Part shown: positions 29,026 through 34,880 of the stretch, piece after piece | Position numbering within the stretch: position 1 is the stretch's first letter | How the letters are laid out: each line of letters begins with the position of its first letter | Source: Escherichia phage PSa2 | Sequence record: OL770310 | Strand: one strand, 5' to 3' | Length of the DNA: 64,000 nucleotides | The notes under the pieces: generated by a model | Seen by the model: the letters and a program-made list of their open reading frames with translations, nothing else | Databases searched by the model: none | What the model was told of the DNA's origin: nothing | Position numbers and translations under genes: made by a program

Positions 29026-29208
29026 TAGATCTCCCTGATGTTAGAATTTGGCTCAGCTTTTTGTTAACCCAGAAGCAAGATAAAAACTGGGAGGCAGGCT
29101 GTTTATTAAGTGAATACCCGATAATCGCTCGTAGTCCGGCTTGTGGATTGATAGTCCCATTCAGTTTAATAAACACAGAGATCTGGCACAAAGGCCTGAT
29201 CTTATCTT

Positions 29209-29284
29209 TGGTAGTTAGTAGTGGATTTGAACCACTGTAGTCGCTCCGTATGAAGGAGGTGCATAACCTCTCTGCCAACTAACT
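29209..29284 (-). tRNA. tRNA, anticodon CAU (Met / fMet / Ile2 type)
   Basis: hand-folded: acceptor 7/7 Watson-Crick, T-arm AGTGG-TTCAAAT-CCACT, anticodon loop UUCAUAC, CCA encoded. Confidence 0.55.
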
Positions 29285-29380
29285 ATTATGTTTTACTAGA
29301 CTAAGTAAGTATTCTTTATACTCTTTAGACCAATTAGCTTTTTTAAACTTTCCTGGACGCATAGTCTTACTTCCTAAATT

Positions 29381-29457
29381 TGGTACTCCAGGAGGGATTT
29401 AAACCCCCGATCTCTCGGTTATCAGCCGAGTGCTTTAGATCGCTAAGCTACCGAAGC
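29381..29457 (-). tRNA. tRNA-Ile (GAU)
   Basis: hand-folded: anticodon arm CUCGG-CUGAUAA-CCGAG; acceptor stem has 3 G-U pairs. Confidence 0.5.
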
Positions 29458-29458
29458 A

Positions 29459-29665
29459 TTAACATTTAATTACAGAACGTTTACCATTTCTAGGCGCACC
29501 TGGAAGTCGTGCACGTTCTGCCATTCTTCGCTTAATCTTTGGGATATTTTCTAGTGTTTGTTCTTCAGGCTTAATACCTGAAACACTACACCACTGATTA
29601 CCATCCCATGCGGTAATGATCATAACACCATTACCCATAATCTTTTCTGTGAAAGTAATTCTCAT
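29459..29665 (-). CDS. hypothetical protein
   Basis: 68-aa ORF. Confidence 0.4.
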   Translation of the reverse strand: MRITFTEKIMGNGVMIITAWDGNQWCSVSGIKPEEQTLENIPKIKRRMAERARLPGAPRNGKRSVIKC

Positions 29666-29958
29666 TATAACAACTCGTCTAAGTAAGAGGTATACTGGTA
29701 TTTAGCTTCACCAGTTTTATCTACTTCGACTTCTGTTCTAGGTACTTTTCGTACCAGACCGTGAATCATCTTATATTGAATAGATTTAGATGGTTCGTGA
29801 TCTTTAGGAAAGACCTGCTTAACTGTAACTACTTTAAATCCCTCACGTGGTGTTAGTACAACAACTTGATCACCTTCTTTGATTTTCCAAGACTCAGGAA
29901 ATTCATAAGTGTAGCGTTGACCACCGGTAAGGAATATAACAGAAAGATAACGTTTCAT
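29665..29958 (-). CDS. hypothetical protein
   Basis: 97-aa ORF. Confidence 0.45.
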   Translation of the reverse strand: MKRYLSVIFLTGGQRYTYEFPESWKIKEGDQVVVLTPREGFKVVTVKQVFPKDHEPSKSIQYKMIHGLVRKVPRTEVEVDKTGEAKYQYTSYLDELL

Positions 29959-29988
29959 TTGGTTTTCCTCTCATTAATTTATACAAAC

Positions 29989-30018
29989 ATTATATCAAGA
30001 AATAAGAGGAAAGGCAAA
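29989..30018 (-). promoter_or_regulatory. sigma70 early promoter
   Basis: promoter family motif. Confidence 0.5.
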
Positions 30019-30032
30019 TGAATTTTTAAATT

Positions 30033-30107
30033 TGGTGCTCCCACCAGGAATCGAACCCGGTTCAGATGCTTACAAGGCAACTGCATCGCCAGCAATGCTT
30101 TAGGAGC
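30033..30107 (-). tRNA. tRNA-Thr (UGU)
   Basis: hand-folded: T-arm CCGGG-TTCGATT-CCTGG, loop CUUGUAA. Confidence 0.55.
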
Positions 30108-30274
30108 AATAAACCCGTTATTTCAACGGGATTTCTTTTTCAAATACAGGAGACTTATCAGACATTACTGTCATAGCCAACTGCTGTAGAAATTCGAATG
30201 AGAGTTTTAAACGTTCTTCGCCCAACTCAACCTCAACGCGCTTCATTCGTTTATCTACCTTTATCTTTAGATTA

Positions 30275-30496
30275 TCAGCCATCTTCGGGTTCTCTTTGCT
30301 CAGCTATTGCTAGCCAGTCTGGTAAAAGAAACTTAGTACGAAATTCTTCATATGTTTCTTCCGGATGAAAGCTATAGCCTTGCTTTTCATCATTTAATAA
30401 AACCGAACCGTCTTCCTGCTCATAAGCTCGGTATGTTTCACCAATAATTAAAACTCGCCTATTAGGGTTTTTATTACGAAACTCAAAAACGTCCAT
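30275..30496 (-). CDS. hypothetical protein
   Basis: 73-aa ORF. Confidence 0.4.
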   Translation of the reverse strand: MDVFEFRNKNPNRRVLIIGETYRAYEQEDGSVLLNDEKQGYSFHPEETYEEFRTKFLLPDWLAIAEQREPEDG

Positions 30497-30511
30497 AACG
30501 TTTCCTTAAAT

Positions 30512-30586
30512 TGGTGCGGGATACGAGAGTCGAACTCGTGTCTACTGGTTGGAAGCCAGTTATTCTAGCCACTGAACTAATCACGC
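30512..30586 (-). tRNA. tRNA-Gly (UCC)
   Basis: hand-folded: anticodon arm ACUGG-CUUCCAA-CCAGU; 3' half resembles bacterial tRNA-Gly. Confidence 0.6.
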
Positions 30587-30592
30587 ATAAAT

Positions 30593-30668
30593 TGGCTGGA
30601 GAAGGAGGAATCGAACCTACCATTAACGGAGTCAAAGGCCGTTGTGCTAACCGTTACACTACTCTCCA
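30593..30668 (-). tRNA. tRNA-Gln (UUG)
   Basis: hand-folded: loop CUUUGAC, 3' end CCAGCCA as in bacterial tRNA-Gln. Confidence 0.55.
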
Positions 30669-30674
30669 AGTATT

Positions 30675-30750
30675 TGGCTGGGATGCCACGGATCGAACGT
30701 GGAACCTTCGGAGTCAGAGGCCGACGATCTGCCAATTGATCTACATCCCA
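30675..30750 (-). tRNA. tRNA-Gln (CUG)
   Basis: hand-folded: acceptor 7/7, loop CUCUGAC. Confidence 0.55.
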
Positions 30751-30758
30751 ATAATTTT

Positions 30759-30959
30759 TTATTCTTCAGGAACCGTGGCTATTGGATCTGGTTCTTCTAG
30801 ACGTTTACCATTATGATCGACACGAATAATGCCACAACCTTCACAGATTACAACAGCACCATAGCCTTCTTTAACTTCGGCTTCTGTAATCAGACCAGAT
30901 AAATCACCAGTATCTTTGCCCCACATATCAATAGAGCATTCTTTGCAGAAATCAGCCAT
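30759..30959 (-). CDS. zinc-ribbon-like small protein (CxxC...CxxC)
   Basis: 66-aa ORF. Confidence 0.4.
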   Translation of the reverse strand: MADFCKECSIDMWGKDTGDLSGLITEAEVKEGYGAVVICEGCGIIRVDHNGKRLEEPDPIATVPEE

Positions 30960-30983
30960 ATTTTATTTCCTATTTAAGTTAAT

Positions 30984-31058
30984 TGGTGCATCCTCAGGGA
31001 ATCGAACCCCGATCGTAAAGTTCGTAGCTTTACATTCTTTCCGTTGAAATAAGGACGC
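30984..31058 (-). tRNA. tRNA-Arg (ACG)
   Basis: hand-folded: anticodon arm UAAAG-CUACGAA-CUUUA. Confidence 0.6.
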
Positions 31059-31064
31059 AATATT

Positions 31065-31141
31065 TGGGGTGGCTAGTGGAATTCGAATCCACATAGGCCT
31101 GATTCACAATCAGGATCATTAACCAATTATGATATAGCCAC
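31065..31141 (-). tRNA. tRNA-His (GUG)
   Basis: hand-folded: anticodon arm CCUGA-UUGUGAA-UCAGG, discriminator C. Confidence 0.6.
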
Positions 31142-31502
31142 AATTGAAAACTCGTAGGGTTAGCGAAACCATCCTCAAATAGTATTTTCTAGAATACTAA
31201 TCAAGTTATCTCCTATTGCACGAAGCTCAAGACGAGTACGAATTTTCAATTGTGGCGGCTCTCCGAAACTCATCACACTAACAACTAGTTGATTACACCT
31301 GGATTCTCGCCCAGGAAATTCTCTAGAAAGGTGCACCGTTACTCTTTGAGCCATTGAATATCAAGAAGCAGAAGGACTTGAACCTTCATGAGATAGACCA
31401 TTTATCTCAGCCTCGTTTTCGGGTATCTTATGAGGAGTGGATGTTCCCCTTACGCCCTTTAGGAAGCCCCGTCTACCGATTCCGGCATACTTCAAGAATT
31501 AT

Positions 31503-31706
31503 TTAAAACTTGTAACCTTCGGGAACCTTATCCTTAACACCAATATACTCAGCTTGGATGTAGTATGTTGGCACATGATCTTTAGGTAGATCTTTATTTA
31601 CATCATTAACTTCCATCAAGGCTTCGGCCTCGGTGTCAAATGGACGATACCAGATTTCACCACCCCAGCCACGTTCGCTTTCGGTATACTTAACAATGTG
31701 TTTCAT
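31503..31706 (-). CDS. hypothetical protein
   Basis: track ORF 31503-31757 trimmed to internal Met so it does not overlap the tRNA. Confidence 0.4.
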   Translation of the reverse strand: MKHIVKYTESERGWGGEIWYRPFDTEAEALMEVNDVNKDLPKDHVPTYYIQAEYIGVKDKVPEGYKF

Positions 31707-31724
31707 AAGGTTTTCCTTATTAGT

Positions 31725-31814
31725 TGGAGGAAGGTAATGGAGTCGAACCATCACCATATCGCTACAGCGGGCAGGTTTTCAAGACCTGTTACATACCACT
31801 ATGTCCTACCTTCC
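31725..31814 (-). tRNA. tRNA-Ser (UGA), long variable arm
   Basis: hand-folded: acceptor 7/7, loop CUUGAAA, ~90 nt. Confidence 0.55.
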
Positions 31815-31821
31815 AGTTGTT

Positions 31822-31914
31822 TGGCGGAAGAAGAGAGATTCGAACTCTCAAGCCTGCTTTCACAAGTCAGCCACTTTCCAAGCGGTTTTCGTCACCTAAT
31901 CGATTTGCTCTTCC
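31822..31914 (-). tRNA. type II tRNA, anticodon tentatively GGA (Ser)
   Basis: acceptor and T-arm (GAGAG-TTCGAAT-CTCTC) clear; anticodon arm assignment uncertain. Confidence 0.4.
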
Positions 31915-32088
31915 GTAGATCTTAGGATTAAATCATAAACCTCATTAGCGCATACTGGAAGTATGAGATTGTACATCTTTTGGTCGTACCTCTGACCATA
32001 TTCTATAAACACATACTCTTTAGTTAATGTATTAATAGCCAACCAGATATCAGTTACAGGAGTTTTCATCGTGATTTAATCCAATGTT

Positions 32089-32169
32089 TGGTAGGGATGG
32101 AGGGACTCGAACCCACACCCGAAGACTAGAACCTAAATCTAGCGCGTCTGCCAATTTCGCCACATCCCC
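32089..32169 (-). tRNA. tRNA-Leu (UAG)
   Basis: hand-folded: anticodon arm CUAGA-UUUAGGU-UCUAG. Confidence 0.45.
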
Positions 32170-32176
32170 ATTTTAT

Positions 32177-32395
32177 TTAGTTAGAAATAAATAATAATCC
32201 CGCAACAATGGAACCTACGCCACTGAATACCATTATCAGCATAGCTTCTAAGCTGATAAAGCGGACAGTATATGGAGCGCCCCAAGAATAATCAGTAAAG
32301 AAAGTTTTCTTTTCTTTAGCTAAATCTTTAACAATTCTAAAATAGATAGCTAGTGCTAAAGCTGCAAGAACTACAGAGGCTGCTAAGAATACCAT
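32177..32395 (-). CDS. small membrane protein
   Basis: 72-aa ORF, two hydrophobic segments. Confidence 0.4.
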   Translation of the reverse strand: MVFLAASVVLAALALAIYFRIVKDLAKEKKTFFTDYSWGAPYTVRFISLEAMLIMVFSGVGSIVAGLLFISN

Positions 32396-32415
32396 ATTAT
32401 TTCCTTAATTTGTTT

Positions 32416-32490
32416 GGTGGAGTCACTCAGAATTGAACTGAGTTCCACTGCTTGCAAGGCAGTAAGTTTAACCAAATAACCTATGACCCC
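32416..32490 (-). tRNA. tRNA-Ala (UGC)
   Basis: hand-folded: G3-U70 pair present, loop CUUGCAA. Confidence 0.55.
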
Positions 32491-32496
32491 GAATTT

Positions 32497-32570
32497 TGGT
32501 GGAGAAAGAGGGAGTTGAACCCTCGTCTTCTGCGTGCAAAGCAGATGTTCTACCATTAAACTATATCCCC
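32497..32570 (-). tRNA. tRNA, anticodon UGC by simplest fold (Ala-like, second copy)
   Basis: hand-folded: anticodon arm UCUGC-UUUGCAC-GCAGA, G3-U70; one acceptor mismatch. Confidence 0.45.
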
Positions 32571-32925
32571 AAAATCTTTAAGTTTACTAAGGCTATTAGC
32601 TCGGTGTGCGTACTGCCCTCAGACATTAGCCAGTAGAGAACAGCCGCTCTTCACAAACCCGATACACTATTCAGTTGCCGCTGAATCTAGTGGACTAATC
32701 TAGAACTTATTGCAAAGTATCCCCCGCCATTAGGGGTCTAATTGCAACTGTGCTTGTTGGCAGCCAGTCCTAGGTCGAGCTAATACCTTAGTGAACTAAA
32801 TTGATGGATATCAGACTAATTTTGCTACGGCGTTTATCCTGAGGATCTCTTTTTCGGTAGCTCTGCTAGTGTAGACGTCATACACCTGATATCTAGGCAG
32901 CTATTTTCACATCAATTTATATAAA

Positions 32926-34346: not shown

Positions 34347-34593
34347 TACATTTTTTAATAAATTTACTTATTAGGTAAGTCACCGAGCTATCAACTCATG
34401 CTAGCGAGAAAGTTTGCGAGACCTTCTTTAAGTACTAGAACACACCCGCCGATGTGTCGGACTTACTTAATAAGTAAACTTTCGTTTACTTACACCTACC
34501 TGGTCGGGAGGATTTTCAGCGACTAGAACCGGCCGGAAACTCATCGCCTTGTTTATCTAGGAGTCCGTTCTCTAGGAAGCAGAAACCTAAATT

Positions 34594-34669: not shown

Positions 34670-34880
34670 AATAAGTCAATCTAGGCAGGACTTGAACCTG
34701 CTATCACTTGTGCGGATTTACGAGAACCATTCTTTCACTCGAATCGAACGAGCTTCTACCCTCGGCAAGCTGGTGTCCCCTCTCCACCACGCTAGAATGA
34801 TAATTAATGCCTGCTCCTTTGAATCAAGAAGTCCACCCCGGACTTTGGGTCTTTGCAGTACATCACGCTGCTCTGATGTT
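34670..34880 (-). other. tRNA-like segment: two canonical T-arm motifs but no pairing acceptor stems found
   Basis: minus-strand GCAGG-TTCAAGT-CCTGC and GCTCG-TTCGATT-CGAGT without matching 5' acceptor strands. Confidence 0.3.

What the first reader, a model, noticed from the sequence alone, without database searches (positions are those of the whole stretch)
31142..31502. ORF-free segment with a stray T-arm motif between tRNA-His and the next gene
About 360 bp without ORFs; contains one canonical minus-strand T-arm (GAAGG-TTCAAGT-CCTTC near 31368-31386) preceded by a 6-bp stem-loop (GAGATA-AATGGTC-TATCTC), but no acceptor stem or CCA. Possibly a degenerate tRNA or tRNA-derived structured RNA.
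Basis: seen in the sequence. Interest (0 to 1): 0.35.

Follow-up and report, generated by a model that had tools for sequence, protein, structure and literature searches.

The report
T5-type stable tRNA-like RNA genes
The "empty" 360 bases hold this T5-like phage's copies of three small stable RNA genes already annotated in phage T5 (RNA1, RNAI, RNAIII), and the stray T-arm belongs to RNA1, a complete leucine-type tRNA body whose anticodon loop is replaced by a long conserved rod, so it cannot decode and its function is still unknown.

Summary
The window is a T5-like Salmonella phage (Epseptimavirus, about 99% identical to Sw2, SH9 and SP76) with about 30 tRNA genes on the minus strand. Region 31142-31502 is 81% identical to phage T5 at the place where GenBank AY692264.1 annotates three misc_RNA genes, rna1, rnaI and rnaIII, directly upstream of tRNA-His. 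A sister record calls two of them "stable RNA with unknown functions".

- **RNA1 (31353-31496, minus strand).** Its "anticodon" stem carries a 48-nt extension capped by a near-invariant loop, ACAUCCAC. Across 22 distinct sequences from four genera, 14 of 38 pairs show compensatory changes.
- **RNAI (31253-31352).** This is an acceptor-stem rod that ends in an encoded GCCA.
- **RNAIII (31143-31248).** This is nearly invariant across 282 phage genomes.
- **Negative results.** There is no tmRNA, intron or Rfam family here. The 59-aa ORF that some records annotate does not behave like a coding sequence.
- **Status.** Existence is already known and function is unknown. A T5 deletion mutant that appears to lack the block is viable. 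I favour accessory tRNA mimics, but this is an inference.

The parts
31353..31496 (-). RNA1 homologue (144 nt by the T5 annotation; the conserved core is about 31364-31494). It is a class-II tRNA-like RNA with an extended anticodon arm.
   Evidence: It is 81.4% identical over 144 nt to T5 misc_RNA rna1. Homologues occur in 492 phage records. The structure is supported by covariation. It scores 164.6 bits with the covariance model R1.
31488..31494 (-). RNA1 acceptor stem, 5' strand (UGAAGUA). The next two bases, U and G, stand at tRNA positions 8 and 9.
   Evidence: It pairs with 31364-31370. Three of the 7 pairs show both-side changes across phages; the outermost pair is U.U in most sequences.
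31469..31485 (-). RNA1 D-arm, CCG-GAAUCGGUAGA-CGG (3-bp stem, with G18 G19 in the loop).
   Evidence: The stem pairs and most of the loop do not vary in 22 sequences. The same 17-mer motif lies inside called tRNA-Leu genes in 53 of 121 bacterial and 16 of 100 viral hits. The best match within the window is tRNA-Leu(tag).
31410..31467 (-). RNA1 extended 'anticodon' arm: stem S1 (5 bp), stem S2 (3-5 bp) and stem S3 (5-7 bp) in place of a 7-nt anticodon loop.
   Evidence: S1, S2 and S3 each have 3 pairs with compensatory changes. RNAalifold predicts the same helices independently.
31437..31444 (-). Apical 8-nt loop ACAUCCAC of the extended arm.
   Evidence: It is identical in 21 of 22 distinct sequences from four genera (one has ACAUCCGC), while the stem below it covaries.
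31390..31408 (-). RNA1 long variable arm, GAGAUA-AAUGGUC-UAUCUC.
   Evidence: All cells are paired, 2 pairs have compensatory changes, and the loop is nearly invariant.
31371..31387 (-). RNA1 T-arm, GAAGG-UUCAAGU-CCUUC.
   Evidence: All cells are paired in 22 sequences.
31364..31370 (-). RNA1 acceptor stem, 3' strand (UGCUUCU). It is followed by U-GAUA with no encoded CCA.
   Evidence: The trailer 31353-31362 varies between phages (alignment columns 136-145), which fits a spacer that is removed.
31253..31352 (-). RNAI homologue (100 nt). It is a rod-like RNA with a 5-7 bp acceptor-type terminal stem, discriminator G and an encoded CCA end.
   Evidence: Its ends match T5 rnaI, and its core is a second allele also found in Sugarlandvirus and Hongcheonvirus, 205 records in all. 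The acceptor stem and apical hairpin covary: 4 pairs, 88% of cells paired against 31-46% when the partners are slid.
31249..31252 (-). CAAU spacer between RNAI and RNAIII.
   Evidence: It is identical in T5. CAAU also precedes the 5' ends of RNAI and, after one further U, of tRNA-His.
31143..31248 (-). RNAIII homologue (106 nt). It has a 12-bp terminal stem enclosing four hairpins and abuts tRNA-His.
   Evidence: It is 95.3% identical to T5 rnaIII. All 282 records with a match are at least 90% identical. The minimum-free-energy fold has z = -3.2. There is too little variation to test covariation.
31065..31141 (-). tRNA-His(GUG), the downstream neighbour on the same strand.
   Evidence: ARAGORN and Rfam call it. 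It is 100% identical to T5 tRNA-His.

Best explanation
The segment encodes three small non-coding RNAs on the minus strand. They are the orthologues of phage T5 RNA1, RNAI and RNAIII, and they lie between a small ORF (31503-31757) and tRNA-His.

Inferred biogenesis. They are made as part of the long tRNA-cluster transcript. The host's tRNA-processing enzymes cut them out, because each begins with an acceptor-type helix. RNase P would cut at the 5' ends. The 3' ends would be set by trimming or by the 5' cut of the next RNA.

It is a full class-II, tRNA-Leu-type body, with:
- an acceptor stem;
- U8;
- a D-arm with G18 G19;
- a long variable arm;
- a T-arm.

Its 7-nt anticodon loop has been replaced by a 48-nt, three-helix extension capped by the near-invariant loop ACAUCCAC. 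It therefore should fold into a tRNA-like L-shape but cannot read a codon. RNAI is an acceptor-helix rod ending in GCCA. RNAIII is an almost invariant multi-hairpin RNA.

Inferred function (about 0.3-0.4 on its own). They are accessory tRNA mimics that engage a tRNA-binding host or phage factor, for example a tRNA-targeting defence nuclease or a tRNA-processing, tRNA-modifying or aminoacylating enzyme. The invariant loops would be the specific contact. They do not take part in decoding.

What is shown: homology, gene order, secondary structure, and the lack of coding signal. What is inferred: expression, processing and function.
For: Homology and synteny:
- The region is 81% identical to T5 AY692264.1 30286-30651, where rna1, rnaI and rnaIII are annotated on the same strand next to tRNA-His.
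- The DT571/2 record labels RNAI and RNAIII 'stable RNA with unknown functions'.

Structure of RNA1:
- Of 38 pairs in 7 helices, 90.8% of cells are paired, against 40-50% when the partners are slid.
- Fourteen pairs have both-side changes. None of 500 shuffles reaches this, and the slid controls give 1-4.
- RNAalifold recovers the same helices.

tRNA-Leu kinship:
- Model R1 scores the window's tRNA-Leu genes at 36.9 and 33.2 bits and all other tRNAs at 16.8 or less.
- The D-arm 17-mer lies inside true tRNA-Leu genes in many genomes.

Conservation:
- RNA1 is in 492 records, RNAI in 205 and RNAIII in 282. RNAIII is at least 90% identical in all 282.
- Against T5, RNAIII (95%) is better conserved than the neighbouring protein gene (87%) and tRNA-Ser (89%).
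- In Sugarlandvirus, RNA1 and RNAI sit at separate places in the tRNA cluster, so each behaves as its own module.

Not coding:
- The ORF is broken in T5.
- In Klebsiella phages the same frame runs on into tRNA-His.
- RNAIII substitutions fall 4, 8 and 2 on codon positions 1, 2 and 3.

Transcription: promoter-like and terminator-like sites in the surrounding 2.3 kb are no more frequent than chance, and the only one inside the segment is the T-arm itself, scored as terminator-like.

Accessory status: T5 mutant T5-123 (deletion 29191-32442) is viable, and by coordinates it removes the block (PMC11464382; the coordinate mapping is my inference).
Against: - No expression or end-mapping data could be examined here. 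The T5 annotation is the only indication that these are stable RNAs, and for 'RNA1' I cannot tell whether it was seen on gels or only predicted.
- RNA1 has no encoded CCA and its discriminator base is not conserved (U in T5-likes, A in Klebsiella phages). This argues against any function that needs aminoacylation.
- Single-sequence folding energies of RNA1 and RNAI are no better than shuffled sequence (z = -0.5 and -0.3). The case for their structures rests on covariation.
- RNAIII's structure cannot be tested by covariation.
- Nothing here identifies a binding partner.
- Dispensability in the laboratory is also what a functionless relic would show.
Confidence: 0.7

Rival explanations
1. The RNAs have no function of their own in trans. 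They are tRNA-shaped processing signals ('punctuation') that let RNase P and other tRNA-processing enzymes cut the polycistronic early transcript. This would define the 3' end of the upstream ORF's mRNA and the 5' end of tRNA-His.
For: - They sit between an ORF and tRNAs on one strand, with no promoter or terminator signal above chance.
- Each starts with an acceptor-type helix.
- The motif CAAU precedes successive 5' ends.
Against: - One tRNA-like helix would be enough for punctuation. Three elaborate RNAs with invariant internal loops (ACAUCCAC, AAUGGUC) and a 95%-conserved RNAIII are more than processing needs.
- In Sugarlandvirus, RNA1 is kept at a different place, not adjacent to RNAI.
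Confidence: 0.12
2. RNA1 is a decaying tRNA-Leu pseudogene, and RNAI and RNAIII are likewise relics, carried along by linkage to useful tRNA genes.
For: - It is not recognised by ARAGORN or by the Rfam tRNA model.
- It has no CCA.
- The region seems dispensable in T5 deletion mutants.
Against: - Fourteen pairs carry compensatory changes, and stems change while loops stay fixed.
- RNA1 is present in 492 records from Epseptimavirus, Tequintavirus, Sugarlandvirus and Hongcheonvirus.
- In Klebsiella phages the acceptor sequence has been replaced yet still pairs.
Confidence: 0.06
3. RNA1 is an interrupted tRNA-Leu gene. The 48-nt insert would be an intron that is removed to give a working tRNA.
For: - The insert sits in the anticodon loop, where tRNA introns occur.
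- The tRNA-Leu body around it is intact.
Against: - The bases flanking the insert do not keep a U33 or an anticodon: CUAAAG, CGAAUA and CUAACG in different phages.
- No intron family matches, even at E up to 10.
- From established knowledge, 48 nt is far below the size of self-splicing group I introns, and enterobacteria have no tRNA-splicing endonuclease.
- The phage already has two tRNA-Leu genes.
- No CCA is encoded, whereas the two neighbouring tRNA genes read here (His, Arg) encode it.
Confidence: 0.03
4. The region is protein-coding. The 59-aa ORF at 31175-31354 (minus strand), annotated as a hypothetical protein in Sw2-like genomes, would be the real gene.
For: - The ORF exists.
- It is annotated in relatives.
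- It matches phrog_24969 at E = 2e-39.
Against: - The frame is interrupted in T5, where the ORF is 38 aa with a different N-terminal part.
- In Klebsiella phages the same frame reads on into tRNA-His.
- Substitutions in the RNAIII part avoid third codon positions: 4, 8 and 2 on positions 1, 2 and 3.
- The PHROG family is most simply explained as repeated gene calls on this same DNA in near-identical genomes.
Confidence: 0.03
5. The region encodes a tmRNA-like or two-piece tmRNA, with the T-arm as part of its tRNA-like domain.
For: - The total length (about 360 nt) is similar to a tmRNA.
- A T-arm lies in the middle, as in permuted tmRNA genes.
Against: - ARAGORN searches for tmRNA and finds none.
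- No Rfam tmRNA family matches at E up to 10.
- Homology divides the region into three separate RNAs, each with its own terminal helix.
- No tag reading frame or pseudoknots were seen.
Confidence: 0.01

Closest known systems
Phage T5 misc_RNA genes rna1, rnaI and rnaIII (GenBank AY692264.1; also annotated in BF23, DT57C and DT571/2)
   Same: - They are orthologous. Identity is 81% for RNA1 and 95% for RNAIII, and RNAI shares its ends.
- Order and strand are the same, and the block again lies directly upstream of tRNA-His.
   Different: - The core of RNAI here is a second allele (100 nt against 107 nt). It is shared with Klebsiella and Pectobacterium T5-like phages rather than with T5.
- A different small ORF lies upstream.
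- Most Epseptimavirus records examined leave the region blank or annotate a hypothetical ORF over it.
Phage T4 small stable RNAs: species 1 (rnaC, 139 nt) and species 2 (rnaD, 119 nt)
   Same: - They are stable RNAs of unstated function, encoded on the tRNA strand at the end of a phage tRNA cluster, next to tRNA-Arg.
- rnaC folds into a terminal helix, a long arm, a second hairpin and a canonical T-arm CCGGG-UUCGAAU-CCCGG. This is the same general plan as RNA1.
[quoted passage not shown]
   Different: - There is no detectable sequence homology. R1 gives rnaC only 11 bits.
- rnaC shows no tRNA-Leu-type D-arm.
Class-II tRNA-Leu
   Same: - The acceptor helix, U8, the 3-bp D stem with loop GAAUYGGUAGA, the long variable arm and the T-loop UUCAAGU are all present.
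- tRNA-Leu genes are the next-best hits of the RNA1 model.
   Different: - A 48-nt structured extension replaces the anticodon loop.
- There is no conserved anticodon, and no CCA is encoded.
- The base at the discriminator position is U, not A.
- The Rfam tRNA model and ARAGORN both fail to recognise it.
tmRNA and bacterial Y-RNA-like YrlA (RNAs that contain a tRNA-like module)
   Same: They follow the same idea: a tRNA-shaped module fused to a non-tRNA domain and handled by tRNA enzymes. This comparison rests on established knowledge, not on a test here.
   Different: - No match to any Rfam model of these families, and ARAGORN finds no tmRNA.
- In RNA1 the free ends are at the acceptor stem and the extra domain replaces the anticodon loop.
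- There is no tag ORF.

Membership tests
T5 stable-RNA gene block (rna1 / rnaI / rnaIII) | Full-length sequence similarity to each annotated T5 RNA | tested here: met
   RNA1 is 81.4% identical over 144 nt and RNAIII 95.3% over 106 nt. RNAI shares its first 20 nt or so and its last 22 nt or so; its core is the alternative allele, which is found in 205 records.
T5 stable-RNA gene block (rna1 / rnaI / rnaIII) | Same order and strand, immediately upstream of tRNA-His inside the tRNA cluster | tested here: met
   The order RNA1-RNAI-CAAU-RNAIII-tRNA-His on the minus strand is the same as in AY692264.1.
T5 stable-RNA gene block (rna1 / rnaI / rnaIII) | Accumulates as a discrete stable RNA in infected cells | not testable with these tools
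   Only the records' labels are available ('misc_RNA'; 'stable RNA with unknown functions'). The original 1980s papers are not in the paper library.
Canonical tRNA (Rfam RF00005 / ARAGORN) | Acceptor stem, D-arm and T-arm with the conserved tertiary-contact bases (U8, A14, G18 G19, T-loop UUCRANY) | tested here: met
   All are present in RNA1 by direct reading, and the helices are supported by covariation. They are not present in RNAI or RNAIII.
Canonical tRNA (Rfam RF00005 / ARAGORN) | 7-nt anticodon loop with U33 and an anticodon | tested here: not met
   A 48-nt insert stands in its place, and the flanking bases are not conserved.
Canonical tRNA (Rfam RF00005 / ARAGORN) | Recognised by tRNA detectors (Rfam score of at least 29 bits; ARAGORN call) | tested here: not met
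   There is no call in 31142-31502, even at E up to 10.
Canonical tRNA (Rfam RF00005 / ARAGORN) | 3' CCA after the discriminator base | tested here: not met
   RNA1 continues U-GAUA after the acceptor stem. RNAI does end in G-CCA. Whether CCA is added after transcription cannot be tested here.
tmRNA (one-piece or permuted) | tRNA-like domain plus a tag reading frame and pseudoknots, detectable by ARAGORN or the Rfam tmRNA models | tested here: not met
   ARAGORN finds no tmRNA in the window. There is no Rfam tmRNA hit at E up to 10.
tRNA gene interrupted by a group I intron | Insert in the anticodon loop that matches an intron model, flanked by an intact anticodon loop | tested here: not met
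   No intron family matches. The insert is only 48 nt, and the loop flanks are not conserved.
T4 species 1 RNA (rnaC) type | Stable RNA gene in a phage tRNA cluster with a T-arm and a long extra arm | tested here: met
   The placement and fold plan are comparable. This is a resemblance in design only.
T4 species 1 RNA (rnaC) type | Sequence or profile homology to rnaC | tested here: not met
   Model R1 gives rnaC 11.1 bits, which is below the scores of ordinary class-II tRNAs.
Protein family phrog_24969 | An open frame kept across relatives, with a coding-type substitution pattern | tested here: not met
   The HMM matches. However, the frame is broken in T5, it runs on into tRNA-His in Klebsiella phages, and third codon positions change least.

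The most novel reading that the evidence does not exclude
RNA1 would be a purpose-built tRNA-Leu mimic. Its tRNA body would dock on a tRNA-binding protein, and its extended arm and invariant ACAUCCAC loop would block or redirect that protein. The target could be a tRNA-targeting immune nuclease, or an enzyme that ignores the anticodon, such as LeuRS.

If so, T5-like phages would carry RNA decoys alongside their nuclease-resistant tRNAs. RNA1 would then be one example of a wider, undescribed class of 130-170-nt 'expanded tRNA-Leu-core' RNAs. I also saw such RNAs in tRNA clusters of unrelated phage contigs. T4 species 1 RNA may be another example.
Probability: 0.2. Interest if true: 0.75.

Novelty: already known. 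Interest (0 to 1): 0.35.

Why it matters
As a genome feature this is ordinary. It is the local copy of RNA genes annotated in phage T5, and the finding can be closed as explained.

It still touches an old loose end. The small stable RNAs in the tRNA clusters of T4 and T5 have no assigned function. Phage tRNA clusters are now known to counter tRNA-cleaving defences, for example the T5 tRNA-Lys that resists PARIS (PMC11464382).

The structure derived here gives concrete targets for mutation and pull-down experiments: a complete tRNA-Leu-type body, a covarying 48-nt rod and a fixed 8-nt loop.

There is also a practical annotation point. Many T5-like genome records leave this block blank or call a hypothetical protein over it, and that call has been carried into a PHROG family.

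Tried and rejected
- **tRNA and tmRNA detectors, Rfam.** ARAGORN and all 4227 Rfam families, at gathering threshold and at E up to 10, find nothing in 31142-31502 apart from a noise hit (snoR120, E = 9).
- **tmRNA or permuted tmRNA.** Rejected. There is no detector hit, and homology splits the region into three RNAs.
- **Intron-containing tRNA-Leu.** Rejected. There is no conserved anticodon around the insert and no intron model match, and the insert is too short.
- **Small protein gene.** Rejected on frame conservation and codon-position pattern, despite the PHROG hit.
- **Promoter and terminator scan.** Nothing above chance. The only 'terminator' is the T-arm itself.
- **Single-sequence folding.** This was uninformative for RNA1 and RNAI (z about -0.3 to -0.5). 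Covariation was needed.
- **Host counterpart.** No match to 5,426 complete E. coli genomes. Short complementarities would not be seen at that database size.
- **Target of the apical loop, by eye.** ACAUCCAC can pair with only 6 nt of the tRNA-His T-stem, or with a mismatched 6 of 8 nt of RNAIII. The RNAIII site varies between phages. I dropped this as chance.
- **Wider homologues of RNA1's insert.** The covariance model finds true RNA1 only in T5-like contigs. Other 'expanded' tRNA-Leu-like RNAs share just the tRNA core, at 33-42 bits, the same range as real tRNA-Leu genes.
- **Literature.** Eight searches found no open paper describing these RNAs. From memory, the T5 stable RNAs were cloned and sequenced by Ksenzenko, Shlyapnikov, Bayev and colleagues in the 1980s. 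I could not check this.
- **DNA-level role.** I considered the T-arm as a homing-endonuclease site, since SegB recognises the T-stem-loop DNA motif (PMC2330249). I did not pursue it. It would not explain covariation in the other helices.
Full report
**What the window is.** ARAGORN finds 29 tRNA genes, all on the minus strand between 29.2 and 42.1 kb. Rfam finds only tRNAs. A 901-nt query around the finding is 98-99% identical to the Salmonella phages Sw2, SH9, EH3 and SP76, which belong to Demerecviridae, genus Epseptimavirus, that is, T5-like phages.

**Checking the observation.**
- On the minus strand the T-arm GAAGG-UUCAAGU-CCUUC lies at 31387-31371. The stem-loop GAGAUA-AAUGGUC-UAUCUC lies at 31408-31390.
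- The T-loop core GGTTCRANTCC occurs 21 times in the window, always on the minus strand, against 0.11 expected by chance. Nineteen copies are in called tRNAs. The other two are this site and one at 34688-34698.
- Neither ARAGORN nor Rfam calls anything in 31142-31502, even at E up to 10.
- The segment is not strictly free of ORFs. ORFs of 59, 50 and 44 aa exist.
- The statement 'no acceptor stem' is wrong, as shown below.

**What it corresponds to.** The 361-nt segment matches 511 phage records. In T5 (AY692264.1, 81% identity) the match lies exactly over three annotated misc_RNA genes on the same strand. These are rna1 (144 nt), rnaI (107 nt) and rnaIII (106 nt), and tRNA-His follows them. 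The DT571/2 record labels RNAI and RNAIII 'stable RNA with unknown functions'. BF23 and DT57C carry the same labels.

Pairwise alignment to the T5 features gives these window boundaries:

| Element | Window coordinates (minus strand) |
|---|---|
| RNA1 | 31353-31496 |
| RNAI | 31253-31352 |
| CAAU spacer | 31249-31252 |
| RNAIII | 31143-31248 |

The T5 record annotates six such RNAs in its tRNA region. From memory, these go back to 1980s work by Ksenzenko, Shlyapnikov, Bayev and colleagues. Those papers are not in the library and I could not verify this.

**RNA1: anatomy.** Reading the sequence from 5' to 3' gives these elements:
- a 5' acceptor strand, (U)GAAGUA;
- U and G at tRNA positions 8 and 9;
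- a D-arm, CCG-GAAUCGGUAGA-CGG;
- a 5-bp stem where the anticodon stem should be;
- a 48-nt insert in place of the 7-nt anticodon loop;
- the T-arm;
- the 3' acceptor strand UGCUUC(U), followed by U-GAUA with no CCA.

The usual tertiary-contact bases are all present by direct reading: U8, A14, A15 with U48, G18 G19, and the T-loop UUCAAGU.

**RNA1: covariation.** I aligned 22 distinct sequences. They come from Epseptimavirus, Tequintavirus (T5, BF23), Klebsiella Sugarlandvirus and Pectobacterium Hongcheonvirus. I scored my structure of 38 pairs in 7 helices.
- 90.8% of cells are paired, against 40-50% when the 3' partners are slid by 1-3 columns.
- Fourteen pairs have changes on both sides. 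None of 500 shuffles reaches this, and the slid controls give 1-4.
- Compensatory changes occur in the acceptor stem (3 pairs), the variable arm (2 pairs) and each of the three helices of the extended arm (3 pairs each).
- RNAalifold independently predicts the same helices, except that it folds the D region differently.
- The apical loop ACAUCCAC is identical in 21 of 22 sequences, while the stem beneath it takes four different forms. The variable-arm loop AAUGGUC is also nearly fixed.
- The 10 nt after the acceptor stem vary freely, as expected for a spacer that is removed.

**RNA1: tRNA-Leu kinship.**
- A covariance model built from this alignment scores RNA1 at 164.6 bits. The window's tRNA-Leu(tag) and tRNA-Leu(taa) come next at 36.9 and 33.2 bits, and every other tRNA scores 16.8 or less.
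- In T4 the model picks tRNA-Leu (37.4 bits) and tRNA-Ser (34.0 bits), so the safest wording is 'class II, most like Leu'.
- The D-arm 17-mer CCGGAATNGGTAKACGG lies inside called tRNA-Leu genes in 53 of 121 bacterial and 16 of 100 viral hits.
- The insert is not an intron. The bases that would form the anticodon loop are not conserved (CUAAAG, CGAAUA and CUAACG). No intron model matches, and 48 nt is too short for a self-splicing intron.

**RNAI.**
- It begins GGCUC and ends GAGCC-G-CCA. This gives a 5-7 bp acceptor-type helix with a discriminator base and an encoded CCA.
- Two alleles exist that share the first 20 nt or so and the last 22 nt or so but have different cores. The window's 100-nt form occurs in 205 records, including Klebsiella and Pectobacterium phages. 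T5 has the 107-nt form.
- Both alleles fold into one long irregular hairpin.
- In the window-type alignment the acceptor helix and the apical hairpin carry 4 pairs with compensatory changes. 88% of cells are paired, against 31-46% when slid.
- The T5-type set is too uniform to test.
- The middle of the rod is not resolved.

**RNAIII.**
- All 282 records with a match are at least 90% identical.
- Twelve distinct sequences average 98% identity, so covariation cannot be tested.
- Its minimum-free-energy fold, a 12-bp terminal helix enclosing four hairpins, is better than 199 of 200 shuffles (z = -3.2).
- Against T5 it is better conserved (95%) than the neighbouring protein gene (87%), tRNA-Ser (89%) and RNA1 (81%). 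Only tRNA-His (100%) is higher.

**Not a protein gene.** The 59-aa ORF at 31175-31354 spans RNAI and RNAIII. It is annotated as hypothetical in Sw2-like records and matches phrog_24969. Three observations argue against it:
- In T5 the frame is broken.
- In Klebsiella phages the same frame runs straight into tRNA-His.
- The 14 variable RNAIII positions fall 4, 8 and 2 on codon positions 1, 2 and 3, the reverse of a coding pattern.

The PHROG family is therefore probably built from spurious gene calls.

**Context and biogenesis (inferred).** Promoter-like and terminator-like sites in the surrounding 2.3 kb are no more frequent than chance, and none other than the T-arm itself lies inside the segment. 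The RNAs lie head to tail with tRNAs, and CAAU precedes successive 5' ends. The simplest reading is co-transcription with the tRNAs, followed by excision by the host tRNA-processing enzymes. In Sugarlandvirus, RNAI sits between tRNA-Ser and tRNA-His, while RNA1 sits elsewhere, between tRNA-Val and tRNA-Asp. Each RNA is therefore a separate module.

**Function.** Function is unknown. [quoted passage not shown] T5-123 lacks 29191-32442 (PMC11464382). That paper's Fragment 1 (31885-32870) holds tRNA-Pro, fMet, Lys and Val, as does AY692264.1 at 32084-32591. The two coordinate systems therefore agree closely, and the deletion should remove rna1, rnaI and rnaIII (30287-30647). This mapping is my inference.

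The RNAs are thus accessory, like the phage's tRNAs, some of which are now known to neutralise tRNA-cleaving defences. I favour tRNA mimicry of a tRNA-binding factor at about 0.3-0.4. From established knowledge, leucyl-tRNA synthetase does not read the anticodon, so a Leu-type body could remain recognisable despite the insert. The missing CCA and the U at the discriminator position argue against charging. Rival readings are scored separately in the rival explanations.

**Comparison with known systems.**
- The closest known thing is T5's own rna1, rnaI and rnaIII, which are orthologues.
- The closest analogue is T4's species 1 and species 2 RNAs (rnaC, rnaD), which lie at the end of the T4 tRNA cluster. 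rnaC folds into a terminal helix, a long arm, a second hairpin and a canonical T-arm. It has no detectable homology to RNA1.
- No tmRNA, YrlA or other Rfam family matches.

**Verdict.** This is a real feature that is already known. The structural model of RNA1 and its covariation support are useful, but they do not change the category.

Noticed in passing
window 31824-31915 (-): A probable tRNA-Ser(GGA) that ARAGORN misses and Rfam scores only 24 bits as tRNA-Sec. It has acceptor GGAAGAG/UUCUUCC, anticodon loop CUUGGAAAG, T-arm GAGAG-UUCGAAU-CUCUC and an encoded GCCA. Sw2 and T5 both annotate a second tRNA-Ser at this position, but T5's tRNAS2 gave no BLAST match to the window.
   Followed up: partly
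window 34675-34799 (-), 32651-32785 (-), 34410-34461 (-): These are homologues of the other three T5 misc_RNA genes: rna2 (89.6%), rna2H (77.8%, partial) and rnaIV (partial). The rna2 homologue is another unrecognised tRNA-like RNA, with acceptor AUUCUAG/CUAGAUU, T-arm GCAGG-UUCAAGU-CCUGC, about 85 nt in between, and no CCA.
   Followed up: partly
window 31175-31354 (-): The 59-aa ORF lying over RNAI and RNAIII matches phrog_24969 (E = 2e-39). That PHROG family looks like an artefact of repeated gene calls on non-coding RNA genes in near-identical T5-like genomes.
   Followed up: yes
L052 1667-1834, L081 2475-2645, L125 792-958, L104 2832-2989, L043 10076-10240, L044 3507-3640, L050 3562-3694, L117 2391-2522 (IMG/VR viral contigs): Phage contigs that carry no RNA1-type insert (several well outside the T5 genome size range) encode 130-170-nt RNAs with a tRNA-Leu-type acceptor, D-arm and T-arm but a 50-100-nt insert in the anticodon or variable region. 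ARAGORN does not call them, at least at the scanned D-arm motif, and the six loci tested against Rfam (L043, L052, L081, L104, L125 and the related L045) gave no Rfam family. Most lie inside tRNA clusters, and several have the T-loop UGCAAAU. This may be a wider class of 'expanded' tRNA-like RNAs.
   Followed up: partly
window 31253-31352 (-) compared with L004 612-718: RNAI exists as two alleles with identical ends but unrelated cores (100 nt against 107 nt). The alleles are distributed across genera in a way that suggests cassette-like exchange inside a fixed acceptor helix.
   Followed up: partly
L038 926-1026 and 2492-2635 (Klebsiella phage K32PH164C1): In Sugarlandvirus, RNAI and RNA1 lie about 1.5 kb apart and RNAIII gave no match in the Sugarlandvirus loci examined. 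The acceptor stem of RNA1 has a completely different sequence there, yet it still pairs, and its core is about 90% identical to the Salmonella phage version.
   Followed up: partly
viral loci such as L042, L047, L058, L063, L072: Many viral contigs carry the 5' half of a tRNA-Leu, up to CUCAAAA, followed by unrelated sequence. These probably mark prophage ends at tRNA-Leu attachment sites, or interrupted tRNA-Leu genes.
   Followed up: no
L101 2895-2949 (-): A type-P5 twister ribozyme just reaches its Rfam gathering score (38.3 against 37.6 bits) in a viral contig that was fetched for another reason.
   Followed up: no
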